Source of the DNA: Candidatus Omnitrophota bacterium | GTDB taxonomy: Bacteria > Omnitrophota > Gorgyraeia > JAHJTE01 | Assembly (NCBI GenBank): GCA_040753675.1 | Contig: JBFMEB010000002.1 | Span: forward strand, 41,888-105,887 | DNA length: 64,000 bases | Direction: 5' to 3' | Shown here: in pieces, positions 27,381-59,936 of the stretch | Layout of the letters: every line of letters begins with the position of its first letter | Numbering within the stretch: position 1 is the first letter of the stretch | The notes under the pieces: model-generated | Told to the model about the DNA's origin: nothing | Seen by the model: the letters and a program-made list of their open reading frames with translations, nothing else | Database searches by the model: none | Translations under genes and position numbers: made by a program

Positions 27381-27428
27381 AAAAATAAGAAAGGCCCAGA
27401 TTTCTCTGGGCCTATTTTTGGCTCCCCG
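27381..27428 (-). repeat. copy of 'tRNA-Asn 3' end + terminator hairpin' module (att-scar-like)
   Basis: Minus strand reads GGGGAGCCAAAAATAGGCCCAGAGAAATCTGGGCCTTTCTTATTTTT. Near-identical to 59890-59936 with compensatory stem changes. Confidence 0.55.
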
Positions 27429-27844
27429 TGCAACACTCCGAGCGAACAAAAATCCTCAAAGCCATTGCTGAAATTATACCATACCATTATCGTTACTTCA
27501 ATAGAACTAAAACGTTATATTTAGGCGAAAGGCCGTCTTTTATCCCGAAAAATAGGATAATTACGAAAAAAGAGATGCGACATTTTAACTACCTCAACTC
27601 TTATGTAAATCCGATAGTCAGGGCTAAGGAATACCTGGAATTGCTTAAAAAGGAAGGCTTAAGCCAGAATAAGCTGGCTAAGCGGCTTGGAATTTCAAGG
27701 GTAAGGATAACGCAGTTTCTAAACCTGCTTAAACTGCCTAAAAGGCAGCAAAACTATATCTTAAGGCATGGGAAAAAGGAATTGATAACCGAAAGGGCTA
27801 TACGAAAGGGCATATTTGCTGCCAGTGGGGTGCAAAAATTATGA
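27428..27844 (+). CDS. truncated ParB/KorB-like HTH protein
   Basis: LAKRLGISRVRITQFLNLLKLPKRQQ resembles the ParB HTH and 'LLKLP..VQ' motif. No N-terminal ParB/Srx domain. Confidence 0.45.
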   Translation: MQHSERTKILKAIAEIIPYHYRYFNRTKTLYLGERPSFIPKNRIITKKEMRHFNYLNSYVNPIVRAKEYLELLKKEGLSQNKLAKRLGISRVRITQFLNLLKLPKRQQNYILRHGKKELITERAIRKGIFAASGVQKL

Positions 27845-27907
27845 GAACTGCTAAGGTGTGTTGTATCCTCTTTATAAATCAATGAGTTGTGAAAGGAGTA
27901 ATAATTC

Positions 27908-28975
27908 ATGTTTGGCAATAATACTTATACCAAAGATAACTGGATTTTTCAAGAGTTTTTGCTGCTTTTAGGCCATCTGGTCCATAGTAACCTTTTAAGG
28001 CAGATAGATTATCTTAAAGTGGAAAATCGAATACTCCGAAGTAAGTTGGGGCAAAGGGTAAATATCACCATATCAGAGAAACGAAGGCTCATCAAATATG
28101 GTCTGCCTTTAGGTGGGAGTATCAGGAATTTCATATCTATTGTCAGTTATTCTACCTTTCGTAGATGGGTTAGTAACGGCATATCCAAAAATAAAACCAA
28201 TACTGCCAGGGGCAGAAGACGAACTCCTGAGGAGATAAGGGAATTGATCGTAAGGTTAGCCAAGGAGAATAACTGGGGTTACACCAGGATATTGGGTGAA
28301 CTGAAGAAACTACGAATATACAGTATCTCCAGAAATACAGTTAAGAATATCTTGCGCGAAAATGGCCTTGATCCGGCTCCAAGACGCTCTGAGGATACCT
28401 GGGATGCTTTTATCAAGAGGCATTTTAAGACCCTCTGGGCGTGTGATTTCTTTACCAAGACTGTATGGACAATGTTAGGTCCTAAAACCTTCTATTGTTT
28501 ATTCTTCATCAATATCTGGACGCGCAAGGTCCATATCGCAGGGATTACAAAACATCCTGATAAGGAATGGGTAAATGACAAGGCAAGGGCTGTATCTTTC
28601 TTCTTTAAGGCTGACGATGGCTCAAGGAAGCTTTTGATTCGGGACAGCGATACAAAATTCTCAAGGGAATTCGATGAGATAATAAATAGATACGGCGCAG
28701 AGGTTAAAAGAATCCCTTACCGCTCACCAAATCTAAATCCTTACGCTGAAGGATGGGTTGGGACGATCAAACGAGAATGCCTGGATTACTTCTTTGTCTT
28801 CGGTGAAAAACATTTCAGATACCTCGTCAAAGAATACGTCAAATACTACAACACTGTAAGACCACATTCGTCTTTGGATAACATGCCCATAAATTACAGG
28901 GCAAAAAACGGCAACGGAAAACTCAAATGTGATTCACGACTTGGAGGCCTTATCAGGCATTATTACCGCGAATGA
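27908..28975 (+). CDS. DDE transposase, IS3/IS481 family (rve integrase core)
   Basis: N-terminal HTH (GYTRILGELKKLRIYSISRNTVKNIL), DDE core with D..D..E spacing and KYYNTVRPHSSL tail motif. Terminal inverted repeats not identified. Confidence 0.8.
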   Translation: MFGNNTYTKDNWIFQEFLLLLGHLVHSNLLRQIDYLKVENRILRSKLGQRVNITISEKRRLIKYGLPLGGSIRNFISIVSYSTFRRWVSNGISKNKTNTARGRRRTPEEIRELIVRLAKENNWGYTRILGELKKLRIYSISRNTVKNILRENGLDPAPRRSEDTWDAFIKRHFKTLWACDFFTKTVWTMLGPKTFYCLFFINIWTRKVHIAGITKHPDKEWVNDKARAVSFFFKADDGSRKLLIRDSDTKFSREFDEIINRYGAEVKRIPYRSPNLNPYAEGWVGTIKRECLDYFFVFGEKHFRYLVKEYVKYYNTVRPHSSLDNMPINYRAKNGNGKLKCDSRLGGLIRHYYRE

Positions 28976-28991
28976 ACGAAAGGGGTAAACC

Positions 28992-29258
28992 ATGCGATTT
29001 AGAAGAATCGAAGCATATCTGATTTTAGGATGTTACTTGGCAATTGGTGCATTGGCAGGATATTTTGTCGGCAAGGAAAGGCCGGTTACGAAGCCAAACA
29101 CCGTCACCGTGGATGTCGTCAAGGAAGGCGATGAAATTCTGATTTACGAGCATTATTCAGGGGAGTTGGTATTTGAGTATAATAAGAATAAGGAAGTGGA
29201 TAAGACCGCCTATAAGGAATTTGAGGATACATGGGAGGAAATAAAAAGTTTGAAGTAA
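28992..29258 (+). CDS. small hypothetical membrane-anchored protein
   Basis: N-terminal hydrophobic helix. No recognisable domain. Confidence 0.35.
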   Translation: MRFRRIEAYLILGCYLAIGALAGYFVGKERPVTKPNTVTVDVVKEGDEILIYEHYSGELVFEYNKNKEVDKTAYKEFEDTWEEIKSLK

Positions 29259-29321: not shown

Positions 29322-29999
29322 TTATTTATTGTTTTTTAATTTCTCAGGGTGATGTTTAACGATCTTTGCAGAAACCATATAGATAACATCTTCTGCAATG
29401 TTTGTAGCGTGGTCACAAATGCGCTCTAAATGACGGGCAATCAAGAGTAGGGGCACGGCGCCTGATACAGTAGTTGAATCCTTACTCATATAATCTTCGA
29501 TTAATTCTTTTTGAACCAAATTACGCAATCTATCCGCTTCGCTATCAAGCAAAATTACCTTTCCTGCTAAATCCGCATCCTTATTTACAAAGGCGTCCAA
29601 GGCATCTTTTGTCATCTGTTTAGCGACACTGGTTAATTTTGGAATATCGATAAGAGGTTTAAGTAATGGCTTACCTGCCAGTTCTAAAACGCGCTGAGCG
29701 ATATCTACAGCTAAATCTGCTATTCTCTCTAAATCCGTAGAGATCTTCATCGACATTGTTATGAAGCGCAAATCAACAGCCATTGGTTGCCTTAATGCCA
29801 ATAAATCAAGGCACTTTTCATCAATTTCATTTTCTAATTCATCAATAATCCTATCGTCAGCAATAACCTTATTGGCCTCTTCTATGCTAAGTTGTTTGAG
29901 GGCTTCTATGGAGCTAGATATAGCCTCTTCTACCAACGCGCCCATCTTTAGTAATACTTTCTTTAAATTCGCTAATTCTTCATCAAAATGTCTTTCCAT
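29322..29999 (-). CDS. phoU: phosphate signaling complex protein PhoU
   Basis: 225 aa, duplicated PhoU repeats. Downstream of pstB. Confidence 0.9.
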   Translation of the reverse strand: MERHFDEELANLKKVLLKMGALVEEAISSSIEALKQLSIEEANKVIADDRIIDELENEIDEKCLDLLALRQPMAVDLRFITMSMKISTDLERIADLAVDIAQRVLELAGKPLLKPLIDIPKLTSVAKQMTKDALDAFVNKDADLAGKVILLDSEADRLRNLVQKELIEDYMSKDSTTVSGAVPLLLIARHLERICDHATNIAEDVIYMVSAKIVKHHPEKLKNNK

Positions 30000-30023
30000 C
30001 GACTACCTCTTCTTTTATCTTTT

Positions 30024-30782
30024 TTATCCAAACCTTCCGGTAATATAATCTTCGGTTCTTTTATCCTTTGGCGCTTTAAAAATTTCTTCGGTTTTACCAA
30101 ACTCAATTAACTCGCCAAGTAGGAAAAATCCAGTTTGATCCGAAACCCTTGCTGCCTGTTGCATATTATGGGTCACTATTATTATGGTATAATTTTGTTT
30201 TAGATGAAATATCAACTCTTCAATTTTGCCTGTAGAGATAGGATCCAAGGCAGAGCAGGGCTCATCAAATAAAATTAGTTCCGGCTTAACCGCTAAAGCA
30301 CGCGCAATACACAGCCTCTGCTGCTGGCCTCCGGAAAGACTCACCCCGGAAGCATTGAGCTTATCTTTTACCTCATCCCATAAAGCAGCCATCTTAAGGG
30401 TCTGTTCCACTATTTCATCAAGATTATCCTTTCTTTTAATGCCGTTTAATTTTAGGCCCGCTGCCACATTGTCGTATATAGAGAGCACCGGGAAGGGATT
30501 TGGTTTCTGAAATACCATACCCACCTTTCGCCTTATCTCAATGGGATCAACATCAGCCGAATAAATATCTTTACCATCTAATAAAACTTCTCCCGAAACC
30601 TTGGCGTTCAGCACGACTTCATGCAGCCTGTTTATACAACGAATAAAGGTTGACTTGCCGCAGCCAGAAGGACCGATAATAGCGGTAACCATCTTTTCAG
30701 CAATGGACATATTGATATTCTTTAACGCCTGGGTATTACCAAAATATGCATTCAAGTTGGAAACTATAACTTCTTCTTTCAT
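30024..30782 (-). CDS. pstB: phosphate ABC transporter ATP-binding protein
   Basis: Walker [13 protein letters not shown] signature LSGGQQQR. Confidence 0.95.
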
Positions 30783-30791
30783 GTTAATTCC

Positions 30792-31643
30792 TTATCTTGA
30801 TATTAATGATTTGTAGCGTAATTTAATCACGAACCGGCTGATAAAACTGATTAAGAAAACCATAACAATCAATACAAATGCTCCAGCCCAGGCCTGCCTG
30901 TGCCAGTCATCAAAAGGAGAAATGGCATAGGAGAATATCTGTAATGGAAGCGCTGCAATAGGCTGAGTAAGGTTTTGATGCCAGAACCTGTTGCCTAAAA
31001 CAGTAAAAAGTAACGGCGCAGTCTCACCTGCTATGCGCGCTATAGCCAATAATATCCCCGTAAGTATGCCGGGCAGCGCGGTCTTAAGTACTATACTAAA
31101 CATTGCCCTGAATTGGTTAATGCCCAAAGCCAACGCCGCTTCGCGAATAGTGCGAGGCACCATTAATAACATCTCTTCAGTTGTGCGCATTATCGTTGGG
31201 ATCATAATTATTCCCAAAGCAAAAGCGCCGCTTATCGCTGAAAAGCTTTTCATCGGAATGACAAACAAGGTATAAGCAAATATCCCGATTACAATTGAGG
31301 GGATTCCGTTTAATACGTCCGCTGCGAATCTGACGGTTGTGCCTAATTTATTATTGCCAAATTCAGCCAAATAAATTCCACCTGCTATTCCTAAGGGTAT
31401 TGCCCACAAACTAGAAAGACCAATTAAAATAAGAGTTCCTACGATGGCATTACTCATGCCTCCGCCAACCTCGCCTACTGGCTTTGGCAGATGAGTAAAA
31501 AAATCAAGATTTATACTGGAGATCCCTTTAATGATGACGTAGCCAAAAATGCTTATCAGAGGCACCAAAGTTAAAATCGCGCAGAACAATGTAATTGTGC
31601 ACATTAATTTATTGATGACTTTTCTGTTTTTATAAGTGTTCAT
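30792..31643 (-). CDS. pstA: phosphate ABC transporter permease PstA
   Basis: 6-TM permease with EAA-like loop. Operon position. Confidence 0.9.
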   Translation of the reverse strand: MNTYKNRKVINKLMCTITLFCAILTLVPLISIFGYVIIKGISSINLDFFTHLPKPVGEVGGGMSNAIVGTLILIGLSSLWAIPLGIAGGIYLAEFGNNKLGTTVRFAADVLNGIPSIVIGIFAYTLFVIPMKSFSAISGAFALGIIMIPTIMRTTEEMLLMVPRTIREAALALGINQFRAMFSIVLKTALPGILTGILLAIARIAGETAPLLFTVLGNRFWHQNLTQPIAALPLQIFSYAISPFDDWHRQAWAGAFVLIVMVFLISFISRFVIKLRYKSLISR

Positions 31644-32566
31644 TCTCTAATCTGGCCTTTTACCTTGTTTGAAACTCTCCAAATCAAAAGCCGCGCGATA
31701 ATATTAATGACAAGGGTAACAAAAAACAATACCAGCCCTACTTCGATCAGCGCCGAAAGATACAAGTTGCTGGTAGCTTCAGCAAATTCGTTGGCGATAA
31801 CCGAAGCCATGGTATATGCTGGAGCAAATAATGAAGCGGAGATCTCCGGCCGGTTACCTATTACCATAGTAACTGCCATAGTTTCGCCCAATGCCCTTCC
31901 CAGCCCCAAGATTACTGCGCCCAAAATACCTGTCCGGCTATACCCTAATACCGCAAGTCTGATAACTTCCCAAGGCGTTGCCCCTAACGCTACTGCCGCT
32001 TCTCGCTGAGTAAAAGGCACAACCAGAAAAACTTCTCTGCATACCGAAGAAATAGTCGGTATAATCATGATGCTAAGTATAATACCAGCCGTTAACATAC
32101 CCACACCGTAGAATTGTCCCTGAAATAGAGGAAGAAATCCAAAGTATTTAGTCAAAAACGGCTGGACGGTTATCCTTAAAAATGGCGCCAGAACAAATAT
32201 CCCCCAAAGACCATAGATTACGCTGGGTATGGCGGCTAATAGCTCAATTAAAAAACTCAAAGGCTGCCTTATAAACTGCGGCGCTAATTCAGCCAGATAA
32301 ATGGCAATTCCTAAAGAAACCGGCACAGCAAGTAAAAGCGCTAAGAATGAAGTGACAACCGTTCCGTAAATAAACGGCAGAGCCCCGAATATCTCCTTAA
32401 CCGGATCCCATGTGCTGGTAAATAAAAAATTCCAGCCAAACTTCTGTATTGCAGGTCCAGCATTTCGGCTCATGCTATAAACCAAAAGCAGCGTTAAGGC
32501 AACCACTGACAAGCCCAATACAGTGGTCGTCTTTTTAAACCAGATATCAATAAATCTTATTCTCAT
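31640..32566 (-). CDS. pstC: phosphate ABC transporter permease PstC
   Basis: Polytopic permease. Overlaps pstA start by 4 bp. Confidence 0.9.
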   Translation of the reverse strand: MRIRFIDIWFKKTTTVLGLSVVALTLLLVYSMSRNAGPAIQKFGWNFLFTSTWDPVKEIFGALPFIYGTVVTSFLALLLAVPVSLGIAIYLAELAPQFIRQPLSFLIELLAAIPSVIYGLWGIFVLAPFLRITVQPFLTKYFGFLPLFQGQFYGVGMLTAGIILSIMIIPTISSVCREVFLVVPFTQREAAVALGATPWEVIRLAVLGYSRTGILGAVILGLGRALGETMAVTMVIGNRPEISASLFAPAYTMASVIANEFAEATSNLYLSALIEVGLVLFFVTLVINIIARLLIWRVSNKVKGQIRE

Positions 32567-32582
32567 TACTTAAGTCGCCCAT

Positions 32583-33614
32583 TTAATAATTTATCTGACT
32601 TATTTTTTCTTCTATTTTATTGATCATACTCTTCGGTAAAGGCGCATATAGCAAATCAGCAGAGTAGTCTTGTCCATCGGTAATAGCCCAACGCAAAAAT
32701 TCGACTATTTTTTTGCCTTTTACCGGGTCATTCTGATTCTTATAGACTAAAATCCAGGTAAATCCACTAATAGGATAGGCATCCTTTCCGTCGGGATCTA
32801 CCAAAGAAACCCTAAAATCAGCTGGCATAGAATTGACCTTTCCATTTACTGCCGCTGTAGTTGATTCTATGCTGGGTGCTATGAAATTTCCGGATTTATT
32901 TTTGATATCCGCGTAGGGAAGATTGTTTTTAACAGCATATGCGAGTTCCACATAACCTATCGAGCCAGGCGTCTGTTTAACCAAGCCTGCAACCCCTTCA
33001 TTGCCTTTTCCGCCCAATCCCACAGGCCAGTTAACAGAGGTGCCTTTTCCAACCTTAGACTTCCAAGTTTTCGACACTTCGGAAAGATAATCGGTAAAGA
33101 TATTGGTTGTTCCGCTTCCGTCTGAACGATGGGCAACAATAATATTTTCATTGGGCAGGTTTGCGCCAGGATTATCTTTAGATATCCGCGGGTCACTCCA
33201 TTTGGTGATTTTACCAAGAAAAATATCGGCCAATACATCCGGACTAAACCTTAAGCGTTGGCTTACCTGATTAAGGTTATACGTAACTACTACAGCGCCC
33301 GCAGTCATTGGTATATGGAATAATTCACCGGGAGCTTGTTTTAACTGCTCATCGGTCAGCGCTCCGTCAGATGCGCCAAAATCCACAGTCTGAGCCGTTA
33401 TCTGTTTTATCCCGCCTCCCGAACCAATAGACTGATAGTTAAAATTGACAGTGGGATCGACCTTGGTATATTCATAGAACCACTTTGAATATAGAGGATA
33501 GGGGAAAGTTGCTCCCGCCCCGTTTATCAAAAGCAGTTTTGCAGCTAAAGCTACGCCCCCCATAAGGCCTGTTACTATTAACCCTACAATTAATCCTAAC
33601 AATTTCTTCCTCAT
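32583..33614 (-). CDS. pstS: phosphate-binding protein PstS
   Basis: Signal peptide. PBP fold motifs GAGATFPYP, SDG. Start set at MRKKLLGL rather than the longer track ORF. Confidence 0.9.
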   Translation of the reverse strand: MRKKLLGLIVGLIVTGLMGGVALAAKLLLINGAGATFPYPLYSKWFYEYTKVDPTVNFNYQSIGSGGGIKQITAQTVDFGASDGALTDEQLKQAPGELFHIPMTAGAVVVTYNLNQVSQRLRFSPDVLADIFLGKITKWSDPRISKDNPGANLPNENIIVAHRSDGSGTTNIFTDYLSEVSKTWKSKVGKGTSVNWPVGLGGKGNEGVAGLVKQTPGSIGYVELAYAVKNNLPYADIKNKSGNFIAPSIESTTAAVNGKVNSMPADFRVSLVDPDGKDAYPISGFTWILVYKNQNDPVKGKKIVEFLRWAITDGQDYSADLLYAPLPKSMINKIEEKISQINY

Positions 33615-33718
33615 TTTATAACCCTCCTTTTTGATTTTGCATTTTTCATCTTTTCTTTTCAAAGTTTAACATTCGGCTGTGACAATCCTGTGACAAAAAA
33701 GTAAATTCTTTGAAAACT

Positions 33719-34984
33719 TTAAAATTTGAAATTTAAATCTGCCTGAAAGAGATTCTCTGTCTTATCTGGGGTGCTGGTTAAATCAGTATGATAGTAATCC
33801 AGCTCCAGATTCCAGTTCTTGCCTAAACCATAAGTAAGCAGTACCTCGTGTCCTCTTATGCCAGTTCTGCCGCCGTACCTGTCTGAATCTGGAAATACAT
33901 CTGGCCAGGCATACGTTCCAAGGAGCGTATGGGTGTATCTGAACTGCCATTGGCCAAAATCTTTTACTTTTTTATGGCCAAGCCTAACACCTCCCATATA
34001 CCCATTTTTGGATTGCTTGGCATCGAGATTATGGATGTATTCGCCAAAAAACCCAAGATAAGGCAGAGCACTTAAACCAAGAGGTTCTTTAACTCCTAAT
34101 TCAATAGTGGGACTAATGGAATTAAAATCTCCTCCACCATTTGTCACAGCTGTATTGTTATTTGTGTTATGGTTTAAGGTTGCGCCTCCTACTTTCTTAA
34201 ATCCATAATAGGTTGTTGCTAAATTCAAATCTAAGCCATCGTTTATCTTCCATTTTAAACCTGGTTGGAATACATACATTAATGGGTCAGCAGTTGCAGA
34301 ATTTTCATCCAACAAAAAAAGGGCTGTATTCATGTATGGCTCAAGATTTGGATTTAGTTTCCATTTAAGCTTACCCGCCACACCTTCAGGATGGATATCT
34401 GTATCCCAGAGCATATCACCTGGCTCCCAAATGGGATTTGCCATTCTACCGCCAAAAAATGTTGCCCATTTGAAAGGCGCATATTCAGCATAGGCATAAT
34501 CGAGGCGGATATCTTTAAGCTCAAAGGTGTTTTCTAAGGTCTGATTGGTTGAACGCGGGTCGGTTCCGCCGCTGGCCAATCCAAAATGCGCTTTGATTTG
34601 ATCATTAACCTTGGCCTCTGCGCCAACCCTAAACCTTATCCTTCCTCGCTCCCGCTCAGTAGTATTTCCCATGTTTAGATTGCTTCCTTTTCTCTTTTCA
34701 TTTTGGTAGCGCAACCTGAAATCGCCTTTGAGTTTTATGTTTTTTGCCCAATCAGGCATATTATCTTTTGCCAGTTTTTTATAGTCTTCCTGTTTCTGCT
34801 TTTCCATTTTGGCTATTTCTTCATTCGTCTCGGTTCTAACTTCTTGTGCTTCAGAAGCGCTTAAAATACCTTTTTCTACCAGTTTCTGCAGAAGAACGTC
34901 AACTTCACCGGCATATGACGGTCTTATCCCCAAGCACACCCCTAGAAATCCGATTAACACAAATACAACAAAACTTTTCTTCAT
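33719..34984 (-). CDS. outer-membrane porin, probably phosphate-selective (OprO/P-like)
   Basis: Signal peptide after MKKSFVV, coiled N-terminal region, beta-barrel with C-terminal NFKF. Head of the pst operon. Start set at the internal Met. Confidence 0.55.
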   Translation of the reverse strand: MKKSFVVFVLIGFLGVCLGIRPSYAGEVDVLLQKLVEKGILSASEAQEVRTETNEEIAKMEKQKQEDYKKLAKDNMPDWAKNIKLKGDFRLRYQNEKRKGSNLNMGNTTERERGRIRFRVGAEAKVNDQIKAHFGLASGGTDPRSTNQTLENTFELKDIRLDYAYAEYAPFKWATFFGGRMANPIWEPGDMLWDTDIHPEGVAGKLKWKLNPNLEPYMNTALFLLDENSATADPLMYVFQPGLKWKINDGLDLNLATTYYGFKKVGGATLNHNTNNNTAVTNGGGDFNSISPTIELGVKEPLGLSALPYLGFFGEYIHNLDAKQSKNGYMGGVRLGHKKVKDFGQWQFRYTHTLLGTYAWPDVFPDSDRYGGRTGIRGHEVLLTYGLGKNWNLELDYYHTDLTSTPDKTENLFQADLNFKF

Positions 34985-35042
34985 TTGGCTTCCTCCTTTT
35001 AATGACCAATTTTTCTGATTTGACGTATATTCAACATCTCCT

Positions 35043-35483
35043 TCATTTCGATATACCACCTCCTTCTCCTGAATTGACCGAAAATGTTTTGTCTCTTATC
35101 CCAGTTAATTCCTTAATAATATCCATCAACTTGGCAACACTGAAAGGCTTGGTGAGGTAATAATCTGCACCTATGATGTTGCCGTAAATCTTATCCAGAG
35201 GCTGAACTCTAGCAGTCAAAACTACTACAAATGTCTTGAACGCTGCCGGATTCTCTTTAATAAACTCACATATACGAAAGCCGTCGATTCCCGGAAGCAT
35301 AATATCCAAGACCACTACGTCAAAAATGTCTTTTGAGAGCTTCTCTTTCGCAGAAATCCCATCAAAAACACTCTCAACTGTGTAGCCATTCTTTAAGAGG
35401 TTGTACGAAATGAGCTTGTTGAGGCTTGCGTCGTCCTCGACAACCATTATTCTTTTTGCTTTCTTTGCTATCGCTGTTTTCAT
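35043..35483 (-). CDS. single-domain response regulator (CheY-like receiver)
   Basis: 146 aa. Receiver Asp pocket (VVEDD...D...LPGIDG...K). Confidence 0.8.
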   Translation of the reverse strand: MKTAIAKKAKRIMVVEDDASLNKLISYNLLKNGYTVESVFDGISAKEKLSKDIFDVVVLDIMLPGIDGFRICEFIKENPAAFKTFVVVLTARVQPLDKIYGNIIGADYYLTKPFSVAKLMDIIKELTGIRDKTFSVNSGEGGGISK

Positions 35484-35564
35484 AATCTATTTTACTTTCA
35501 GCATTAAGCTTACAAAATTATTGTTACAAAATCCTTAAACGACTGTGAACTTTCTGCAAACTCT

Positions 35565-36257
35565 TTAAATTTCAACCTTATATCCTTCCCCCTTGATTGT
35601 CTTAATAAATTGAGGATTATTCGGATCTTTTTCTATTTTTTCTCTTAAATGCCTTATATGGACATCGATATTGCCGTACTCAACGATTTTGTCTTGCCAG
35701 ACTGCATCAGAGATTTGTTCATGAGTAAGAAGCTCACCTTTTCTCTCTATAAGCACCTTGAGAATCGCTGCTTCTTTATTTGTAAGGTATATCTCTTTAC
35801 CTTTCACTCTCACTGTAGAATCCACAAAATCAATCTCAATTCCATTAAAAGTATATTTTCTAGGTAACATGGGAGGTTTTTCGGCTCTGGCTAAAACTCT
35901 CTTTACTCTTGCCACAAGCTCCCTGGGGCTAAATGGCTTGGTAACATAATCATCCGCGCCAACCTCAAACCCTTTGAGTTTATCTTCGGTCTCGGCGCGG
36001 CAGGTAAGCATTATTACGAGGATGTCCTTTGTCTTTTGAGTTTCTCTTAAGCGTTTACAAACTTCCCAGCCATCTATCTTGGGAAGCATTAAATCTAAAA
36101 TCATTAGGTCAGGCAATTCTCTTTCGGCTATTTTGAGTGCCTCTTCTCCGTCATCGCAAGATAGAACATCGTAGCCCAACATTTTTATATGCAGGCTCAC
36201 TAAAGCAACTAGTTCCTTCTCATCATCAACGATTAAGATTTTCTTTTTACTAGACAT
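35565..36257 (-). CDS. OmpR-family response regulator (PhoB-like)
   Basis: Receiver plus winged-helix trans_reg_C domain. Confidence 0.85.
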   Translation of the reverse strand: MSSKKKILIVDDEKELVALVSLHIKMLGYDVLSCDDGEEALKIAERELPDLMILDLMLPKIDGWEVCKRLRETQKTKDILVIMLTCRAETEDKLKGFEVGADDYVTKPFSPRELVARVKRVLARAEKPPMLPRKYTFNGIEIDFVDSTVRVKGKEIYLTNKEAAILKVLIERKGELLTHEQISDAVWQDKIVEYGNIDVHIRHLREKIEKDPNNPQFIKTIKGEGYKVEI

Positions 36258-37535: not shown

Positions 37536-37538
37536 ATT

Positions 37539-50510: not shown

Positions 50511-50512
50511 TT

Positions 50513-51270: not shown

Positions 51271-51896
51271 CTTGCCACCTCCTCGCCAAATTCCTGCCTT
51301 ATAACTTCGCCTATAAGAACCGGCTCTTTTAGGCGCTCTTTAAAATTGGATTTTCTGTTTTTAAAGAATTGAGATTGAGAAAAATTCCCCTTTTCTTTAA
51401 TACTTTCTTTATATATATTTCTTTCTTTATTTTGTGTGGTGTCCTGCAAGACACCTTTTAAGGTGTCTTGGGGGACACCACCTGGTGTCTTACAGGACAC
51501 CTCTGGGGTGTCTCTCAAGACACCACCTTTTAAAGTTATCCACAACTTCCACTGTGGATATCTCTTATTTAAGCCAAGGATGTTTTTGGTTCTATTTTTC
51601 TCTTTGACAAGCACTCGGTCGTTGATTAACTGCTCTACTACCTTTTTGACATAGCGCTTGTTTAAGCCGGTTAGATAAGAGATAACTCCGTAACTTATCT
51701 CTGATTTTTTCTTACGCCAGCCATAGGTCTTTCTCATAACGACCAAGAGCACTTTAATCTGGGCAGCAGTGAAAGGATAAGCGATAATTGCCTCTAAAAG
51801 CTCATTGGCAATTCGCGTATGACCTTTCTCAAGCTGGGGGCTACCTATTCTCAAAGTCAAACTCCTTCTGATACCTGATGCCAAATTTATCCTCAA
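51267..51896 (-). CDS. phage replisome-organizer/replication initiator (lambda O-like N-terminal HTH)
   Basis: N-terminal HTH region (VISYLTGLNKRYVKKVVEQLINDRVL). Gene body contains four ori-type iterons. Confidence 0.55.
   Translation of the reverse strand: MRINLASGIRRSLTLRIGSPQLEKGHTRIANELLEAIIAYPFTAAQIKVLLVVMRKTYGWRKKKSEISYGVISYLTGLNKRYVKKVVEQLINDRVLVKEKNRTKNILGLNKRYPQWKLWITLKGGVLRDTPEVSCKTPGGVPQDTLKGVLQDTTQNKERNIYKESIKEKGNFSQSQFFKNRKSNFKERLKEPVLIGEVIRQEFGEEVAR
51438..51524. repeat. four iterons GGTGTC-N6-GACACC (putative phage origin)
   Basis: 18-bp units at 51438, 51462, 51484 and 51507, spacing 22-24 bp. Each unit has perfect 6-bp inverted arms. Confidence 0.7.
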
Positions 51897-53160: not shown

Positions 53161-53202
53161 CCTTAATATGTCAATCTTGGGGCAAATTGTGACAAAGAAT
53201 TT

Positions 53203-54553: not shown

Positions 54554-55168
54554 TTAATATTTTCTGTAGACTCCGATTACTTTGCCAAGGATGCTTATTG
54601 TAGCGTCTTCGGGATGAAAGGCAAAAGGCGGTATTGCAGGGTTTTCCGCCTTTAGGGTTATAGTATCATCATTTTTATAAAAACGCTTTACAGTTGCCTC
54701 ATCATTTATTAAGGCAACCACAATTTCGCCATTTTCTGCTATTGGCTGTTGTTTGACAATTACAAAGTCACCGTTATAGATACCAGCGTTTATCATACTA
54801 TCACCCTGAACTTTTAAGGCAAAAATATTCTCTCCTTTAGCCCAAGTTTTATCTATGGCGACATAGCCTTCGATATTCTCAACAGCTAAGATAGGACTTC
54901 CTGCTGCAACTCTACCTAAAACCGGAACCTCCACTATATCACGTAAGGTCTTTCTAATTCCTGTAAGAAAAATGGCTCGCGCTTTATCTCTTTCTCTCTT
55001 TATATATCCCTTTTTTTCTAAAACAGCCAGGTAATCCTGGGCCGTGCCGAGAGCTTTAAACCCAAAGTGGGCCATTATTTCACGCAGTGTAGGCGTGGAA
55101 TTATTCTTCAGCCAACAGTCTTTAATGAAGTTTAGAATTTGCTTCTGTTTCCTGGTTAGGTCCTGCAT
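54554..55168 (-). CDS. LexA-family (S24 peptidase) repressor, prophage CI-like
   Basis: LexA DNA-binding domain (LTRKQKQILNFIKD..PTLREI...LEKKGYI), Ala-Gly cleavage site (VAAGSP), and Ser/Lys S24 domain. Start set at MQDLTRKQ with GGAGG RBS. The track ORF extends further. Confidence 0.8.
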   Translation of the reverse strand: MQDLTRKQKQILNFIKDCWLKNNSTPTLREIMAHFGFKALGTAQDYLAVLEKKGYIKRERDKARAIFLTGIRKTLRDIVEVPVLGRVAAGSPILAVENIEGYVAIDKTWAKGENIFALKVQGDSMINAGIYNGDFVIVKQQPIAENGEIVVALINDEATVKRFYKNDDTITLKAENPAIPPFAFHPEDATISILGKVIGVYRKY

Positions 55169-55297
55169 TAGAATCTGCCTCCTTCCAGCAAAAGTAATAT
55201 ACCATACATTTGTCTGGGATGTCAAGAAAAAAAATTTCACCCCCTCTGTCACAATTCCCATGTTTCTTGACATACTGTATATGAGGAAGGTAAATCA

Positions 55298-55560: not shown

Positions 55561-57210
55561 ATGAGCATAAAAAAGTGCGCACTATACATAAGGGTCTCTA
55601 CCTCACGACAGGCAAGTGTTGAAGATGGTTCTTTAAAGGCTCAGGAAGCCAGATTAAAAGCCTATGTAGATTATGAAAATACCAATAAAGGCGGCGACTG
55701 GGAAATAGCCGATATATATCGTGAGGAAGGGCGCTCAGCCAAAGATCTAAAACGACCTGAGTTTCAACGGCTTTTAGTAGATATAGAAGCCGGTAAAATA
55801 AACACCATTGTAATCTGGAAGATAGACCGCCTTACCAGATCCCTAAAGGACTTCTCCACCCTCTGGGAATTATTCAAAGAAAAAGGAATCCAGCTTATCT
55901 CCCTCAATGAAAAATTTGATACGAGCACAGCCCTGGGAAGGGCAATGATTAGCATTATCCTTGTTTTCGCCCAGCTTGAGCGAGAACAAACCGGAGAAAG
56001 AACTGCTGCAACAATGCAATACAGGGCGGAAAAGGGACTCTGGAATGGCGGTAGGATAATCGGCTATGACCTCGACCCAAACAATAAGGGCTCCCTTAAA
56101 ATAAATCGTGAGCAAATGGCAATAGTAAAAAAGGCCTTTGACCTTTGTATAGAAAAGGGTTCAGCAGGACAAGTGCAAAGAACACTTAACGACCTCGGCT
56201 ATAGAATGCCTACCTATAAATCAAGGCGCGGCAAAGAGCACGGCAACAACCTCTTTACCAAGCAGGCAGTTATAAGAATGCTTACTAACTCTGTTTATGT
56301 TGGTAAAATAAACTGGGGTGGTAAACTTTATCAAGGAAAACACCAAGGAACAATAGATGAAAAGAAATTTTTGAAGATACAGGAAATACTACGACAAAAT
56401 AGAAAGAGAAAGACTAATGATAAGTTACCACGGCAACACGTATATCTCTTGCAAGGCATTCTCCGCTGTGGAAAATGCGGTTCAATGATGACACCAAAAG
56501 GTGGCATAAACGGTTCCGGACACCCATACCACTATTATCAATGTACAAAAAATAGCCATATAGGGAATATTGCCTGCAAAGCTAAATACGTCCCGGCAAA
56601 ATCAATCGAGAATTTTGTCGTAGAAAGAGTAAAAGAGCTGACTACAAACGAAGAAGAAATTGCAAAGATGGTAAAAAATGCTAATAAATATAGTGATACA
56701 CAATTAAAGAAATTAATTGAAGATAAACAGAGCTTACAGAAGGCTATCCACCAAGTAAAAGAGAAACTTAACGCAATGGTCGACACTATAGAGAACGAAG
56801 GCGCTAAAGCTTTTAAGACTTTGCAAGAAAGAATGGCTGCATTGGAAAAACAGCGTGAAGAGTTAGAAAAGAAACTTGAGGTAATAGACTTTGAGGCTAC
56901 AAAAATCGAGCAGGAAAGAGTCAGTGCAGAAATAATGCAGGAGCACTTTAAATCCTTTAGGGATGTCGTTAAAAAGGCTGATGCTCAAAAACTAAAAGAG
57001 CTTCTTTTTCAAATCATAGAAATCATACAATGGCATGAAAATCCTGATGATAGCTCCTCAGGACACTGCAAGATTAGTTATTTCGAACAACCCCGCTTAA
57101 TTATTCCCCAAAATAAACTGAGCGAACAAGGTGGTAACCTACTGTTCGCTCAGAGTGACAACTGGCTCCCCCGCGAGGACTCGAACCTCGGACATGGTGG
57201 TTACACTTAA
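55561..57210 (+). CDS. large serine recombinase (integrase)
   Basis: Resolvase catalytic N-terminus (ALYIRVSTSRQ), recombinase domain, zinc ribbon (CGKCGS...C), coiled coil. The last ~20 codons are antisense to tRNA exon 2, so the true C-terminus is uncertain. Confidence 0.85.
   Translation: MSIKKCALYIRVSTSRQASVEDGSLKAQEARLKAYVDYENTNKGGDWEIADIYREEGRSAKDLKRPEFQRLLVDIEAGKINTIVIWKIDRLTRSLKDFSTLWELFKEKGIQLISLNEKFDTSTALGRAMISIILVFAQLEREQTGERTAATMQYRAEKGLWNGGRIIGYDLDPNNKGSLKINREQMAIVKKAFDLCIEKGSAGQVQRTLNDLGYRMPTYKSRRGKEHGNNLFTKQAVIRMLTNSVYVGKINWGGKLYQGKHQGTIDEKKFLKIQEILRQNRKRKTNDKLPRQHVYLLQGILRCGKCGSMMTPKGGINGSGHPYHYYQCTKNSHIGNIACKAKYVPAKSIENFVVERVKELTTNEEEIAKMVKNANKYSDTQLKKLIEDKQSLQKAIHQVKEKLNAMVDTIENEGAKAFKTLQERMAALEKQREELEKKLEVIDFEATKIEQERVSAEIMQEHFKSFRDVVKKADAQKLKELLFQIIEIIQWHENPDDSSSGHCKISYFEQPRLIIPQNKLSEQGGNLLFAQSDNWLPREDSNLGHGGYT
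57098..57142 (-). terminator. terminator downstream of tRNA-Asn
   Basis: Minus strand CTGAGCGAACA-N14-TGTTCGCTCAG followed by TTTATTTTGGGG. Confidence 0.5.
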
Positions 57211-57513
57211 CCCGAAATTACTTTCGGAAGTGGACTATATTATTGCCGGCGACTTTACGTTTCGGCAGCGGGTATATAGTCTCTGCACATTTACTCCGAT
57301 TTCTCGAAGACTTAGCTCAGGATTACCCCTGCTGTTTCGTTTTGCTTCGCAAAAGCGAAACAAAACGACAGGGGTTTCCCTGAATTAGCCCGCTTTTTCA
57401 TCTACGGTTTCCCGTAGAAGCTGCCATTTAAGATCCCTCGGCTTCGCCTCGGGATCAAATCCGCCTTTGGCGGATTTGACAGCCACCCGCTCTACCAACT
57501 GAGCTACAGGGGA
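57143..57513 (-). tRNA. tRNA-Asn(GUU) interrupted by a group I intron (exon1 57479-57513, exon2 57143-57183, CCA encoded)
   Basis: Exon1 is TCCCCTG-TA-GCTCAGTTGGTAGAGC-G-GGTGG-CTGT. Exon2 is TAA-CCACC-ATGTC-CGAGGTTCGAGTCCTCG-CGGGGGA-G-CCA. Acceptor and anticodon stems pair perfectly across the 295-nt insertion. U1-A72 and loop CUGUUAA match Asn. Confidence 0.75.
57184..57478 (-). ncRNA. group I self-splicing intron (no ORF)
   Basis: Core R element GTGCAGAGACTATA and S element AATATAGTCC (P7 pairing). P4-like GCGGG/AATCC. 5' exon ends in U, intron ends in G. Candidate IGS GCAGCU pairs with exon GGCUGU. Confidence 0.7.
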
Positions 57514-57530: not shown

Positions 57531-57560
57531 TATTTTATCTCAATGGGTGGATTAGTCAAG
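57531..57560 (-). promoter_or_regulatory. putative sigma70-type promoter for tRNA-Asn
   Basis: Minus strand TTGACT-16nt-TAAAAT, about 20 nt upstream of tRNA position 1. Confidence 0.4.
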
Positions 57561-57677
57561 CAGAAAACCGGAGGCGCCGAGTCCGAGCGGGGGGAGTTTC
57601 CATTTTTTAACCCACTATGATATAATATATTGCAGTGGGTTTTTCTTTTAGCCAAGGTTTAAAGAGGAGAGGAAAAG

Positions 57678-58931: not shown

Positions 58932-59161
58932 AGATTAAAATGACTTATTTAACTGATAATTACCAAATCTATTATCAGCTTGCCTGATTCTTCTGAGTAG
59001 AGCCAGTTGCGAAACTCGTCCAATACGGGGAGCTAAAAGGGAACGACGACCTCGCGGGGGGAGGCCAGAAGCGAGGACTCGAAAAGAACGAACATGAATT
59101 TTCCCTCTTGACAATACAACTATTTAGTTGTATACTTTATTTGGATAAAGAGAGGATATAA

Positions 59162-59515
59162 GTGGCTAACTATTCGTGCTTTTACTTTACAACCGAATCA
59201 GGAAAGGCACCAGTTGAGGAATTTATAGATTCATTAGATTATTCAAGTCAGAGGAAGTTCTTTTTTAAGAAAGGGCTATTAGAGGAATTTGGACCAAGAT
59301 TACCCTTTCCACATGCGAAATACATAGGCAGTGAGATTTATGAATTAAGATTTGAAGGCAAAGAAGGGGCTATACGAGTTCTATATTTCTTTTATTACAA
59401 AAACGAGGTCATATTTACGAACGGCTTTATTAAGAAATCGAATAAGACTCCGAAGGGAGAGAAAGAATTAGCTATTGAGAGAAGAAAATTATTCCTAGAA
59501 AGAAGAGGTGGTTAA
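59162..59515 (+). CDS. HigB-like (Gp49/RelE-ParE superfamily) toxin
   Basis: Gp49-family pattern: FIDSLD, YELRF.., IRVLYFF, FIKKSNKTPKGE. Confidence 0.65.
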   Translation: MANYSCFYFTTESGKAPVEEFIDSLDYSSQRKFFFKKGLLEEFGPRLPFPHAKYIGSEIYELRFEGKEGAIRVLYFFYYKNEVIFTNGFIKKSNKTPKGEKELAIERRKLFLERRGG

Positions 59516-59855
59516 AATGAGACAGGTAAATAAACACTTAGAACAGAAACTGAAAGATCCATACTTCAAAGAGCTTTATGAGCTGGAAGAGCAAAAATTA
59601 AATATTGTCAAACGCATCATTGATTATCGCGTCAAAAACAATCTTACCCAGGGCCAATTAGCTAAAAAGATAGGGATTAGCCAGCAGCACATATCCAAGA
59701 TTGAGAATGGTGAGTTTAGCAATATCGTTACTCTTGAGAAGATTCTCTTAGCTATTGGTTTTAAGGTAAAGATTGAAGTTGCACCTTTGCATAAAAGAAT
59801 CAGAGACCAAATTCTGAAGATGCGGCCATTAAAAATGCATCATCAAATGGCCTGA
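59508..59855 (+). CDS. XRE-family HTH antitoxin (HigA-like)
   Basis: LTQGQLAKKIGISQQHISKIENGE HTH. 8-bp overlap with the toxin gene. Confidence 0.7.
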   Translation: MVKMRQVNKHLEQKLKDPYFKELYELEEQKLNIVKRIIDYRVKNNLTQGQLAKKIGISQQHISKIENGEFSNIVTLEKILLAIGFKVKIEVAPLHKRIRDQILKMRPLKMHHQMA

Positions 59856-59889
59856 TTTCAATTAAGGAGTTTCTAAACTCAGTTACGAA

Positions 59890-59936
59890 GGGGAGCCAAA
59901 AATAGGCCCGGAGAAATCCGGGCCTTTCTTATTTTT
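59890..59936 (+). repeat. copy of 'tRNA-Asn 3' end + terminator hairpin' module; also functions as terminator after higA
   Basis: GGGGAGCCAAAAATAGGCCCGGAGAAATCCGGGCCTTTCTTATTTTT. 8-bp stem plus T tract. Paralog of 27381-27428. Confidence 0.6.

What the first reader, a model, noticed from the sequence alone, without database searches (positions are those of the whole stretch)
27381..59936. Two near-identical 'tRNA 3' end + terminator' modules (att-scar-like) bracket a ~32-kb region, with compensatory stem mutations
Position 59890-59936 (+) reads GGGGAGCCAAAAATAGGCCCGGAGAAATCCGGGCCTTTCTTATTTTT. The minus strand of 27381-27428 reads GGGGAGCCAAAAATAGGCCCAGAGAAATCTGGGCCTTTCTTATTTTT. The two differ by one G/C to A/T pair that preserves the 8-bp stem. 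GGGGAGCCA equals the 3' acceptor end plus CCA of the intron-bearing tRNA-Asn. Neither copy has a tRNA body upstream. A further 15/16 match to the tRNA 3' end (TGGCTCCACCGCGAGG) sits at 27215-27230, and looser echoes occur at 57575-57600 and 59041-59078. This pattern is expected from repeated site-specific integration into tRNA-Asn that displaces the native 3' end and terminator. It implies that much of 27.2-59.9 kb may be horizontally acquired in layers.
Basis: seen in the sequence. Interest (0 to 1): 0.6.

Follow-up and report, generated by a model that had tools for sequence, protein, structure and literature searches.

The report
Serine-recombinase island split across tRNA-Asn
One repeat marks the far end of a 29.7-kb mobile island inserted into an intron-bearing tRNA-Asn gene by a serine recombinase whose recombination site lies inside its own gene; the other repeat is a second, tRNA-less copy of the same terminator in front of mgtE.

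Summary
A 47-nt module (GGGGAGCCA plus a 9-bp hairpin terminator, "T1") occurs at 27381-27427(-) and 59890-59936(+). It matches 45/47, and the two differences form one compensatory stem pair. GGGGAGCCA is the 3' end of a genuine tRNA-Asn(GUU) gene at 57163-57513(-), which a group I intron interrupts.

The 27.4-kb copy is a true attR. A large serine recombinase (LSR, 55561-57210) ends in the antisense of the tRNA 3' exon. The ORF that starts in frame at the 27.4-kb core (27428-27844) is homologous to the C-terminal ParB-like HTH domain of long-form LSR homologues. So attP lies inside the LSR gene, and integration split that gene around a 29.7-kb element (27428-57162). The native terminator was displaced to 27.4 kb, and a replacement terminator is encoded antisense within the LSR gene.

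The 59.9-kb copy is not explained that way. It lies on the 5' side of the tRNA, inverted, at the right edge of a ~0.85-kb HigBA cassette upstream of mgtE. Why two T1 copies exist is unresolved.

Integration did displace a tRNA 3' end and terminator, but this is not one simple layered series.

An intragenic attP in a bacterial serine recombinase appears undescribed. Its closest analogue is the archaeal SSV-type tyrosine integrases.

The parts
27381..27427 (-). Module copy 1. Core GGGGAGCCA (27419-27427) plus bidirectional terminator T1 (stem-loop 27392-27413). This is the host-side half (B') of attR of the LSR element.
   Evidence: it directly abuts the P arm and the C-terminal-domain ORF
59890..59936 (+). 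Module copy 2. Core GGGGAGCCA (59890-59898) plus T1 (stem-loop 59904-59925). It terminates the HigBA cassette and precedes the mgtE promoter. It is not a cognate att site of the LSR element.
   Evidence: the flank has no homology to the P arm or the C-terminal domain
57163..57513 (-). tRNA-Asn(GUU) gene interrupted by a group I intron. Exon 1 is 57479-57513, the intron is 57204-57478, and exon 2 is 57163-57203. Its promoter is at 57532-57559. Its 3' end is attL.
   Evidence: the same gene with its intron occurs in L001
55561..57210 (+). Large serine recombinase, 549 aa (Resolvase + Recombinase + Zn-ribbon). Its last 16 codons (WLPREDSNLGHGGYT + stop) read the antisense of tRNA exon 2 and 7 nt of the intron.
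27428..27844 (+). Detached C-terminal ParB-like HTH domain of the LSR, 138 codons. It is in frame with the core TGGCTCCCC at 27419-27427.
57118..57162 (-). P' arm of attP plus a replacement terminator for the tRNA. The hairpin is CUGAGCGAACA...UGUUCGCUCAG followed by UUUAUUUU. It is encoded antisense to LSR codons SEQGGNLLFAQS.
   Evidence: conserved in L001 and L116
27428..27460 (+). P arm of attP (GTGCAACACTCCGAGCGAACAAAAATCC). It is an inverted repeat of the P' arm (TGTTCGCTC[A/G]GAGTG).
   Evidence: conserved in L029 and L030
27428..57162 (.). Integrated element E1, 29.7 kb. It carries the HTH-domain ORF, an rve-family gene (27908-28975), a Pst/PhoU/PhoBR/porin block (29322-38225), an HTH_17 excisionase-like ORF (38302-38478), a PD-(D/E)XK nuclease, mer genes (42.1-46.1 kb), a replication module (Rep O, GemA-like), a LexA-like repressor (54554-55273) and the LSR.
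   Evidence: composition
27165..27244 (-). Second scar. AAAGGGAGCGACGA + CCTCGCGGTGGAGCCA (a 15/16 match to the tRNA 3' end) followed by a different terminator (27165-27214).
59003..59095 (+). Cluster of att-like fragments. X1 (59003-59028) is shared with L031. It is followed by the degenerate core GGGGAGCTAAAAG, then GGAACGACGACCTCGCGGGGGGAGGCCA (a partner of the 27.2-kb scar), then GCGAGGACTCGAA, which is antisense tRNA T-arm-like.
59162..59855 (+). HigB-like (Gp49/DUF891) toxin and HTH antitoxin cassette with its own promoter (59108-59136). It is bounded by imperfect direct repeats ending in GGGGAGCYAAAA (59028 and 59890).
26407..27147 (-). Zeta-toxin-like ATPase plus a small upstream partner ORF, just outside attR. 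A 62%-identical zeta gene also sits beside the attR-type junction in L030.
57568..57649 (+). Degenerate tRNA 3'-end-like sequence (CGAGTCCGAGCGGGGGGAG) followed by a terminator hairpin. It lies divergent from, and immediately upstream of, the tRNA-Asn promoter.
59944..60019 (+). mgtE promoter region (X3), conserved with L031. This is the host backbone to the right of copy 2.

Best explanation
The 47-nt module is the host-side half of a tRNA-Asn attachment site. It holds the last bases of tRNA-Asn(GUU) plus its intrinsic, bidirectional terminator T1.

Shown for the left copy:
- A 29.7-kb element (27428-57162) is integrated into the 3' end of the intron-bearing tRNA-Asn gene by a large serine recombinase.
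- Its attP lies inside the recombinase's own ORF. In the free form the ORF is 675 codons: catalytic and DNA-binding domains, then W-L-P encoded by the core TGGCTCCCC, then a ParB-like HTH domain.
- Integration leaves the first 537 codons at attL, where the ORF now reads the antisense of the tRNA 3' exon and stops in the intron.
- Integration moves the HTH-domain codons 29.7 kb away to attR, next to the displaced GGGGAGCCA+T1.
- The element restores the tRNA 3' end and supplies a new terminator hairpin, encoded antisense within the recombinase gene.

Inferred: the crossover is at the TC/GA dinucleotide in the centre of the core (GGG[GA]GCCA).

Less certain, for the right copy: it is a second, tRNA-less copy of core+T1 in front of the mgtE promoter. 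It now forms the right junction of a ~0.85-kb HigBA cassette bounded by imperfect direct repeats of the core. Both copies are kept as working terminators, which would explain the preserved stem. How the duplication arose is not resolved.
For: Module and terminator:
- Two copies at 45/47, with 0 expected by chance.
- Both are scored as bidirectional terminators, and the hairpin is stable: -20.7 and -26.3 kcal/mol.

tRNA: Rfam group I intron at 79.8 bits; the spliced exons give tRNA-Asn(gtt).

LSR: Pfam Resolvase + Recombinase + Zn_ribbon_recom; PDB hits to the TP901-1, A118 and SPbeta integrases.

Split gene:
- The ORF 27419/27428-27844 aligns from W-L-P onward with residues 535-668 of long-form homologue P0007 (E 8e-24) and with P0026 (E 2e-23).
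- Joining 55561-57171 to 27428-27847 gives an uninterrupted 675-aa ORF. It aligns to P0007 in one HSP (1-663 vs 1-668, 60.5% identity).

att arms:
- TGTTCGCTCaGAGTG (57143-57157) and its inverted partner at 27435-27449 flank the core, as in LSR attP sites.
- The free-form attP in L003 has the same core.
- The P arm is conserved in L029 and L030, while the host side differs to the left of ...(C)TCCCC. This places the crossover in the core.

Family pattern:
- About 50 of the first 96 homologues end in W/R-L-P-x-x-D-S-N, the antisense translation of a tRNA 3' end.
- L116 and L001 LSR genes overlap tRNA-Asn genes.

Native terminator: an unoccupied tRNA-Asn in L114 is followed by a T1-like terminator...AGGCCC..GGGCCTTTCTATTT.

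Replacement terminator: hairpin plus U-run after attL in the window, L001 and L116 (z -2.9 to -5.8).

Right copy: L031 (MgtE 88% identical) has X1, a core-like GGAAGCCAA, a terminator, a gene cassette, a second near-identical terminator, then the same mgtE promoter, with no tRNA. The window's HigBA cassette sits between GGGGAGCTAAAA and GGGGAGCCAAAA.
Against: - No empty attB and no circular form of this particular element were seen. The window's genome and its closest relatives are barely represented. DNA pattern scans of the GTDB genomes, JGI metagenomes and IMG/VR found no other T1 copy.
- The element contains a 9-kb Pst/Pho block whose tetranucleotide signature is indistinguishable from the flanking chromosome (r = 0.969). 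It may therefore be host DNA captured or rearranged into the element.
- Compared with L001, the tRNA plus element is inverted relative to the conserved Memo/AMMECR1 neighbourhood. A rearrangement not included in this model may have occurred.
- The origin of the second T1 copy is unexplained. The two shared sub-modules (61-nt and 25-nt pairs) occur in permuted rather than mirrored order.
- The compensatory pair could arise by hairpin-templated mutation rather than by selection.
Confidence: 0.72

Rival explanations
1. Both modules are displaced native 3' ends left by repeated integration into the single tRNA-Asn, and everything between them was acquired in layers.
For: The core equals the tRNA 3' end. 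The left copy is a true attR. Extra scars and toxin-antitoxin cassettes lie on both sides.
Against: Serial integration at a tRNA 3' end stacks scars downstream of the tRNA in the tRNA's own orientation. The right copy is upstream of the tRNA 5' end and inverted. Integration does not duplicate the host half-site, so one tRNA gives only one T1. The Pst block is host-like in composition. L031 has the equivalent unit before mgtE with no tRNA.
Confidence: 0.08
2. The ~32.5-kb segment between the two inverted modules has flipped by recombination between them, or between two inverted tRNA-Asn/T1 loci. Before the flip, tRNA-Asn(+) lay near Memo/AMMECR1 as in L001, and the element's attR abutted T1-mgtE. 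Under this view the right copy is the original native terminator.
For: In L001 the identical tRNA-Asn lies ~750 nt from the Memo/AMMECR1 gene and points away from it. The window has the opposite polarity. Inverting 27428-59889 restores that polarity and keeps attL and attR in direct orientation. Related loci carry two tRNA-Asn-like copies (L114, L116). Integrase-driven inversions between tRNA-derived sites are known in Thermococcales (PMC5495485, listed).
Against: The closer relative L031 keeps X1 within ~0.7 kb upstream of mgtE in the same orientation as the window, so the present right junction looks ancestral. The longest perfect identity between the copies is only 20 nt. An inversion still needs two pre-existing T1 copies. 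Coding-strand GC3 skew is too noisy to show a recent flip.
Confidence: 0.2
3. The tRNA-Asn(-), its T1, the nearby scars and zeta cassette, and E1 all arrived together as one larger island carrying its own tRNA-Asn. This island inserted into or replaced the host's original tRNA-Asn(+). The degenerate remnant of that gene is at 57568-57597, followed by a terminator. The mgtE-proximal T1 would be a separate host copy.
For: A degenerate tRNA 3'-end-like sequence plus terminator, in + orientation, sits directly beside the tRNA(-) promoter. This model satisfies the synteny of both L001 and L031. A zeta cassette sits beside the same type of junction in L030.
Against: The remnant is only a ~16/20 match. 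No second integrase or island boundary was found next to Memo. The model does not explain 96% identity between an island-borne T1 and a host T1.
Confidence: 0.15
4. The module is a REP/MITE-like dispersed palindromic terminator family. Its first 9 nt match the tRNA only by coincidence.
For: The module is an extended palindrome (GCCAAAAATA...TATTTTTGGC). L031 also has two near-identical terminators flanking a cassette.
Against: There are only two copies in 64 kb and none in three public collections. The left copy joins exactly at the LSR core with a conserved P arm and an in-frame gene continuation. A similar terminator follows an intact tRNA-Asn in L114.
Confidence: 0.05

Closest known systems
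Large serine recombinase (serine integrase) prophages and islands, e.g. phiC31, Bxb1, TP901-1, A118, SPbeta SprA
   Same: Same domain set: Resolvase + Recombinase + zinc ribbon + coiled coil. The attP is ~50 bp with imperfect inverted arms around a short core. Identity between attP and attB is very short. attL and attR are in direct orientation around the element.
   Different: attP lies inside the recombinase ORF, so integration changes the protein's C-terminus. The target is the 3' end of a tRNA gene; from my own knowledge, the characterised serine integrases mostly target protein-coding genes or intergenic sites. The free form carries an extra ParB-like HTH domain. The 3' end of the gene is dual-coding: protein on one strand, and tRNA end plus terminator on the other.
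SSV-type ('suicidal', type I) tyrosine integrases of archaeal viruses and plasmids (SSV1, pTN3, pT26-2)
   Same: attP lies within the integrase ORF. The target is a tRNA gene. Integration partitions the gene to the two ends of the element, and the att site is translated as part of the protein (PMC7253208).
   Different: Those are tyrosine recombinases and are described as 'so far restricted to archaea' (PMC7253208). Their split yields two inactive halves. Here the enzyme is a serine recombinase in bacteria (Omnitrophota and others). All catalytic and known DNA-binding domains stay in one piece, and only a C-terminal HTH domain is detached.
Integration-dependent immunity of cluster G/N/P mycobacteriophages (attP inside the repressor gene)
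   Same: Integration through an intragenic attP changes the C-terminus of a phage protein, giving different free and integrated forms (my own knowledge; not tested here).
   Different: There the split gene is the repressor and the integrase is a tyrosine recombinase. Here the recombinase gene itself is split.
tRNA-gene genomic islands with displaced 3' ends (tyrosine-integrase type)
   Same: The element restores the tRNA 3' end and pushes the native downstream sequence to the far junction. Scars and toxin-antitoxin cassettes accumulate at the hotspot.
   Different: The shared identity is only 9 nt, and no tyrosine integrase was found among the ORFs scanned.

Membership tests
Large serine recombinase integrative element | Recombinase with an N-terminal resolvase catalytic domain, a recombinase domain and a zinc-ribbon domain | tested here: met
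   Pfam PF00239 (8.5e-38), PF07508 (1.3e-16), PF13408 (6e-15); PDB sequence hits to TP901-1, A118 and SPbeta integrases; the catalytic-region motif RVST is nearly invariant in the alignment
Large serine recombinase integrative element | attP of ~50 bp with imperfect inverted-repeat arms around a short core shared with attB | tested here: met
   Reconstructed TGTTCGCTCAGAGTGACAAC-TGGCTCCCC-GTGCAACACTCCGAGCGAACA; the same layout occurs in the free-form L003
Large serine recombinase integrative element | attL and attR in direct orientation bounding the element, each a hybrid of host and element half-sites | tested here: met
   attL is tRNA + core + P' at 57.16 kb. attR is P + core + T1 at 27.4 kb. 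Both are on the minus strand.
Large serine recombinase integrative element | Empty attB in genomes lacking the element, or a circular attP form of the same element | tested here: inconclusive
   No close relative with an empty site was found. Indirect support: L114 has an unoccupied tRNA-Asn with a T1-like terminator, and L003-L005 carry the free long-form gene with no tRNA nearby.
Large serine recombinase integrative element | Recombination activity and a 2-bp crossover | not testable with these tools
   The crossover at TC/GA is inferred from the symmetry centre and from the host-side differences in L029 and L030.
SSV-type 'suicidal' integrase systems | attP located within the integrase ORF, so integration partitions the gene | tested here: met
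SSV-type 'suicidal' integrase systems | Tyrosine recombinase fold | tested here: not met
   The enzyme is a serine recombinase.
SSV-type 'suicidal' integrase systems | Integration yields two inactive gene fragments | tested here: not met
   The 549-aa attL product keeps all three Pfam domains and the region conserved to residue 537. Only the HTH domain is removed.
SSV-type 'suicidal' integrase systems | Target is a tRNA gene | tested here: met
   tRNA-Asn in the window, L001 and L116
Intrinsic (rho-independent) terminator | G+C-rich hairpin followed by a U-run | tested here: met
   Both copies were detected on both strands. The MFE hairpins are 9 bp. Function was not tested.
Group I intron in a bacterial tRNA anticodon loop | Match to the group I covariance model, and exons that splice to a canonical tRNA | tested here: met
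   RF00028 at 79.8 bits against a cutoff of 50. Exon 1 ends in U and the intron ends in G. The spliced product is tRNA-Asn(gtt). The same arrangement occurs in L001 at 84 bits.
REP/MITE-like dispersed repeat | Many dispersed copies per genome | tested here: not met
   2 copies in 64 kb and 0 in the GTDB, JGI and IMG/VR scans. The rest of this genome could not be searched.

The most novel reading that the evidence does not exclude
This is a bacterial, serine-recombinase counterpart of the archaeal SSV-type systems. It is a widespread LSR clade, found in Omnitrophota, CPR-labelled and other MAGs, whose attP sits inside the recombinase ORF and targets tRNA 3' ends.

Integration would swap a ParB-like HTH domain for a tRNA-antisense tail. 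The swap, or the separately expressed HTH fragment, would act as the directionality or regulatory switch, so that the long form integrates and the short form plus the detached domain governs excision.

The same ~60 bp of the gene also encodes, on the other strand, the tRNA 3' end and a replacement terminator.
Probability: 0.35. Interest if true: 0.8.

Novelty: new variant of a known kind. Interest (0 to 1): 0.62.

Why it matters
If confirmed, this extends the 'integrase that splits its own gene' design from archaeal tyrosine integrases to bacterial serine recombinases. That would be an independent invention of the same solution.

It would define a tRNA-Asn-targeting LSR clade with readable att sites. 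It would also supply a natural pair of recombinase isoforms, with and without an HTH domain, that could be tested for control of directionality. This bears on genome-engineering uses of serine integrases.

Practically, it shows that tRNA finders miss the intron-bearing tRNA-Asn that anchors the island. It also shows that W-L-P-x-x-D-S-N C-termini are a simple signature for finding integrated members of the family.

The element carries mercury-resistance genes and a full high-affinity phosphate uptake and regulation set. It may therefore move ecologically relevant traits among Omnitrophota.

Tried and rejected
- Chance or low-complexity match: rejected.
- Exact-pattern scans for T1 found nothing in GTDB genomes, JGI metagenomes or IMG/VR. 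The window's own genome is visible only through two 100%-identical proteins from a 110,862-bp NCBI Omnitrophota MAG contig, and their loci could not be fetched.
- Empty-site search through Memo/AMMECR1 neighbours in GTDB: 22 loci at 39-60% identity, with no tRNA-Asn nearby and no synteny on that side.
- MgtE search in metagenome contigs gave one distant hit. The 85% MgtE relative L156 has an unrelated upstream region.
- IMG/VR search with an LSR alignment gave only two moderately related loci. One of them, L035, has the LSR and the ParB-HTH protein as separate adjacent genes.
- Second LSR or second HTH-domain remnant near the 59.9-kb copy: none found by tblastn.
- The rve gene as an IS with a second copy flanking the Pst block: rejected, because the 23-nt match at 39.6 kb is not a gene copy. 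The rve gene is instead conserved next to the HTH-domain ORF in L029 and L030.
- The 'scar 2' pattern CGACGACCTCGCGGKGG in IMG/VR gave 36 hits, all unrelated high-GC coding sequence.
- GC-skew and GC3-skew evidence for a recent inversion: too noisy.
- A detailed event-by-event history of the att fragments at 59.0-59.1 kb was attempted and abandoned as under-determined.

Full report
**1. The observation**

The 47-nt sequence GGGGAGCCAAAAATAGGCCC[G/A]GAGAAATC[C/T]GGGCCTTTCTTATTTTT occurs at 59890-59936(+) and 27381-27427(-). No match appeared in 100 shuffles. The two differences fall on paired positions of a 9-bp stem, turning G-C into A-T. Both versions fold into the same hairpin followed by a T-run, and both are scored as terminators on both strands. 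Weaker similarity extends the pair to 61 nt at 90%. The copies are inverted relative to each other.

Rfam detects a group I intron at 57211-57440(-) with 79.8 bits. Joining 57479-57513 to 57163-57203 gives a canonical 76-nt tRNA-Asn(gtt) ending in GGGGAGCCA. The 15/16 match at 27230-27215 and the weaker echoes near 57.58 and 59.05-59.08 kb are also present.

**2. What the left copy is**

A 549-aa ORF at 55561-57210(+) is a large serine recombinase (LSR). It has the Resolvase, Recombinase and Zn-ribbon domains and matches the TP901-1, A118 and SPbeta integrases in the PDB. Its last 16 codons, W-L-P-R-E-D-S-N-L-G-H-G-G-Y-T plus the stop, are the antisense of tRNA exon 2 and of 7 nt of the intron.

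This is a family trait. About 50 of the first 96 homologues end in W/R-L-P-x-x-D-S-N, where TGG is the antisense of CCA and D-S-N is the antisense of the T-loop. Direct checks agree:
- L116 overlaps an intron-less tRNA-Asn.
- L001 overlaps the same intron-bearing tRNA-Asn as the window.

Two homologues are longer: P0007 (691 aa) and P0026 (621 aa). After W-L-P they continue into a ~140-aa domain. The window ORF that begins in frame at the core of the 27.4-kb module (27419/27428-27844, +) is 35-38% identical to that extension, starting at W-L-P (E 8e-24 and 2e-23). It carries a ParB/Spo0J/Noc-type HTH. Joining 55561-57171 to 27428-27847 gives an uninterrupted 675-codon ORF that aligns to P0007 in a single HSP (1-663 vs 1-668, 60.5%).

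The DNA on the two sides of the core forms the imperfect inverted repeat expected of an LSR attP. TGTTCGCTCAGAGTG (57143-57157) pairs with CACTCCGAGCGAACA (27435-27449). The free-form attP in L003 has the same core and layout and has no tRNA nearby.

I conclude that attP lies inside the recombinase gene, attL is at the tRNA 3' end, and attR is the 27.4-kb module. Here GGGGAGCCA+T1 is the displaced end and terminator of tRNA-Asn. The integrated element is 27428-57162.

In two other attR-type junctions (L029, L030) the P arm is conserved but the host side differs to the left of (C)TCCCC. Together with the symmetry centre of attP, this places the crossover at the TC/GA dinucleotide of GGG[GA]GCCA. 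That placement is an inference.

An unoccupied tRNA-Asn in L114 is followed by a similar terminator, GGGGAGCCAaattttAAAGGCCCAATCaaaaGATTGGGCCTTTCTATTT. This supports T1 as the native tRNA-Asn terminator type.

**3. How the element repairs the tRNA**

After attL, the element sequence reads GUUGUCACU-CUGAGCGAACA...UGUUCGCUCAG-UUUAUUUU. This is a strong hairpin with a U-run, and it is conserved in L001 and L116 (z -2.9 to -5.8). It lies antisense to the LSR codons S-E-Q...F-A-Q-S. The last ~60 bp of the gene therefore encode protein on one strand and, on the other, part of attP, the restored tRNA end and a replacement terminator. Terminator function is inferred, not shown.

**4. Contents of the element**

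From attR to attL:
- the HTH-domain ORF;
- an rve-family gene (27908-28975), which also lies next to the HTH ORF in L029 and L030;
- PhoU, PstBACS, a porin and two response-regulator/PhoR-type genes (29.3-38.2 kb);
- an HTH_17 excisionase-like ORF (38302-38478);
- a PD-(D/E)XK nuclease;
- a higher-GC stretch (39-42 kb);
- mer-type genes: an HMBD protein, MerA-like reductase, MerT/HMA and a CsoR-type repressor;
- a phage-like replication module (Rep O, GemA-like);
- a LexA-like repressor;
- the LSR.

The Pst/Pho block has the same tetranucleotide signature as the flanking chromosome (r = 0.969). By contrast, 38.3-42 kb and 46.4-55.5 kb deviate (r = 0.71 and 0.89). The block may be captured or rearranged host DNA, or cargo from a related host. 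This is unresolved.

**5. The right copy**

It lies 2.4 kb upstream of the tRNA's 5' end and in the opposite orientation. It therefore cannot be a 3' end displaced from this tRNA by simple integration. Its flank has no similarity to the P arm or the HTH domain.

The closest relative found, L031 (MgtE 88% identical), has the following order upstream of mgtE:
- X1 (CCAGTTGCGAAACTCGTCCAACAC);
- a core-like GGAAGCCAA;
- a terminator;
- a cupin gene;
- a second, near-identical terminator;
- the same mgtE promoter, with no tRNA.

In the window, X1 (59003-59028) is followed by GGGGAGCTAAAAG and then a ~0.85-kb insert. The insert holds a partner of the 27.2-kb scar, a promoter and a HigB/HigA-like pair. 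After the insert come GGGGAGCCAAAAAT-T1 and the mgtE promoter.

So the right copy is the right junction of a small cassette sitting in a 'core + terminator' site in front of mgtE. This part rests on one relative and on short motifs.

**6. What remains unexplained**

Integration does not duplicate the host half-site, so two 96%-identical T1 copies need a duplication, a second tRNA-Asn locus or gene conversion. Several observations bear on this:
- Relative to L001, which shares DnaX-RecR-radical SAM-spermine synthase-like-Memo/AMMECR1 synteny at 63-81% identity, the tRNA plus element is inverted. Flipping 27428-59889 would restore that polarity.
- However, L031 suggests that the present mgtE-side junction is ancestral.
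- The two shared sub-modules are in permuted, not mirrored, order.
- Skew data are uninformative.
- A degenerate tRNA 3'-end-like sequence with its own terminator sits back-to-back with the tRNA promoter (57568-57649). This hints at an older, oppositely oriented tRNA-Asn.

I rank the alternatives in the rival explanations but cannot decide among them.

**7. Comparison with known systems**

The element is a member of the LSR integrative elements by every feature that could be tested. It departs from the characterised ones in three ways: an intragenic attP, a tRNA target, and a detachable ParB-like HTH domain.

The intragenic attP with a tRNA target is the hallmark of the SSV-type 'suicidal' tyrosine integrases, which are stated to be 'so far restricted to archaea' (PMC7253208). 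In the library searched, no paper other than the archaeal review links serine recombinases with that design.

The system is not a member of the SSV-type family. The fold differs, and the catalytic part is not destroyed. It works like that family only in that integration remodels the recombinase gene. In a more distant viral-contig relative (L035), the LSR and the HTH protein are separate adjacent genes across the same core. The fusion is therefore a variable feature of the clade.

**8. Verdict**

The ordinary part is a tRNA-linked genomic island with displaced terminators, toxin-antitoxin cassettes and scars.

The unusual part is the split, dual-coding serine recombinase gene and the family-wide tRNA-antisense tails. 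I rate this a new variant of a known kind, of moderate to high interest.

Noticed in passing
window 57204-57478 (-); L001 11647-11898 (-): A group I intron interrupts tRNA-Asn(GUU) after the second anticodon base in two Omnitrophota genomes, and ARAGORN reports no tRNA there. From my own knowledge, bacterial tRNA group I introns are known mainly for tRNA-Leu(UAA), tRNA-fMet, tRNA-Ile and tRNA-Arg. A literature search for tRNA-Asn returned only organellar papers.
   Followed up: partly
L114 11600-12200 (-): The order here is: an intact tRNA-Asn, a T1-like terminator, a 90-aa GIY-YIG nuclease ORF, a partial tRNA-Asn copy whose anticodon arm is replaced by the hairpin TCCGCCGCAGGCGGA, and then the LSR element. 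A further pseudo-tRNA of the same type lies upstream. L116 has the same odd tRNA-like unit.
   Followed up: no
L031 4084-4700: Two near-identical terminators in direct orientation (AGCCCATCTTTAACCAGGTGGGCT and AGCCCATCTCTAACCAGATGGGCT, with paired differences) flank a single cupin gene upstream of mgtE. This resembles the window's duplicated terminator around a cassette.
   Followed up: partly
window 39344-39381 and 53162-53199: A 38-nt direct repeat at 79% (CTTAATATGTCAAT...TTGTGACA) lies upstream of two minus-strand genes of the element. It may be a shared operator or promoter, perhaps for the LexA-like repressor at 54554-55273.
   Followed up: no
window 51436-51481: A near-perfect 22+22-nt palindrome (GTGGTGTCCTGCAAGACACCTT / AAGGTGTCTTGGGGGACACCAC) lies inside the Rep O-like gene. 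It may be a replication origin.
   Followed up: no
window 47171-50510 (-): Four consecutive genes (YdjM-like, AAA/STAND-like ATPase, an unknown, PLD-like nuclease) have strongly negative coding-strand GC3 skew (about -0.4), unlike all their neighbours. This is a compositionally distinct sub-block inside the element, perhaps a defence cassette.
   Followed up: no
window 58946-58957 and 59960-59971: A perfect 12-bp inverted repeat (TATTTAACTGAT / ATCAGTTAAATA) brackets the whole att-fragment + HigBA + T1 segment. It may be chance (E about 0.4) or the ends of a small element.
   Followed up: no
window 27908-28975; L029 6590-6943; L030 2234-2674: An rve/HTH_32 'transposase-like' gene lies directly downstream of the detached HTH-domain ORF in three independent loci (79-81% aa identity). 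It looks like a conserved component of this element subfamily rather than a stray IS.
   Followed up: partly
window 21383-26313; L001 12677-17683: The left flank carries a conserved AmmeMemoRadiSam-type cluster: a radical SAM gene, a spermine-synthase-like gene and a fused Memo+AMMECR1 gene. It is syntenic across Omnitrophota and some Deltaproteobacteria MAGs.
   Followed up: no
L030 4702-5120: In this locus the detached HTH-domain ORF is frameshifted (two tblastn segments in different frames), whereas it is intact in the window and L029. The detached part seems to decay in some integrated copies.
   Followed up: no
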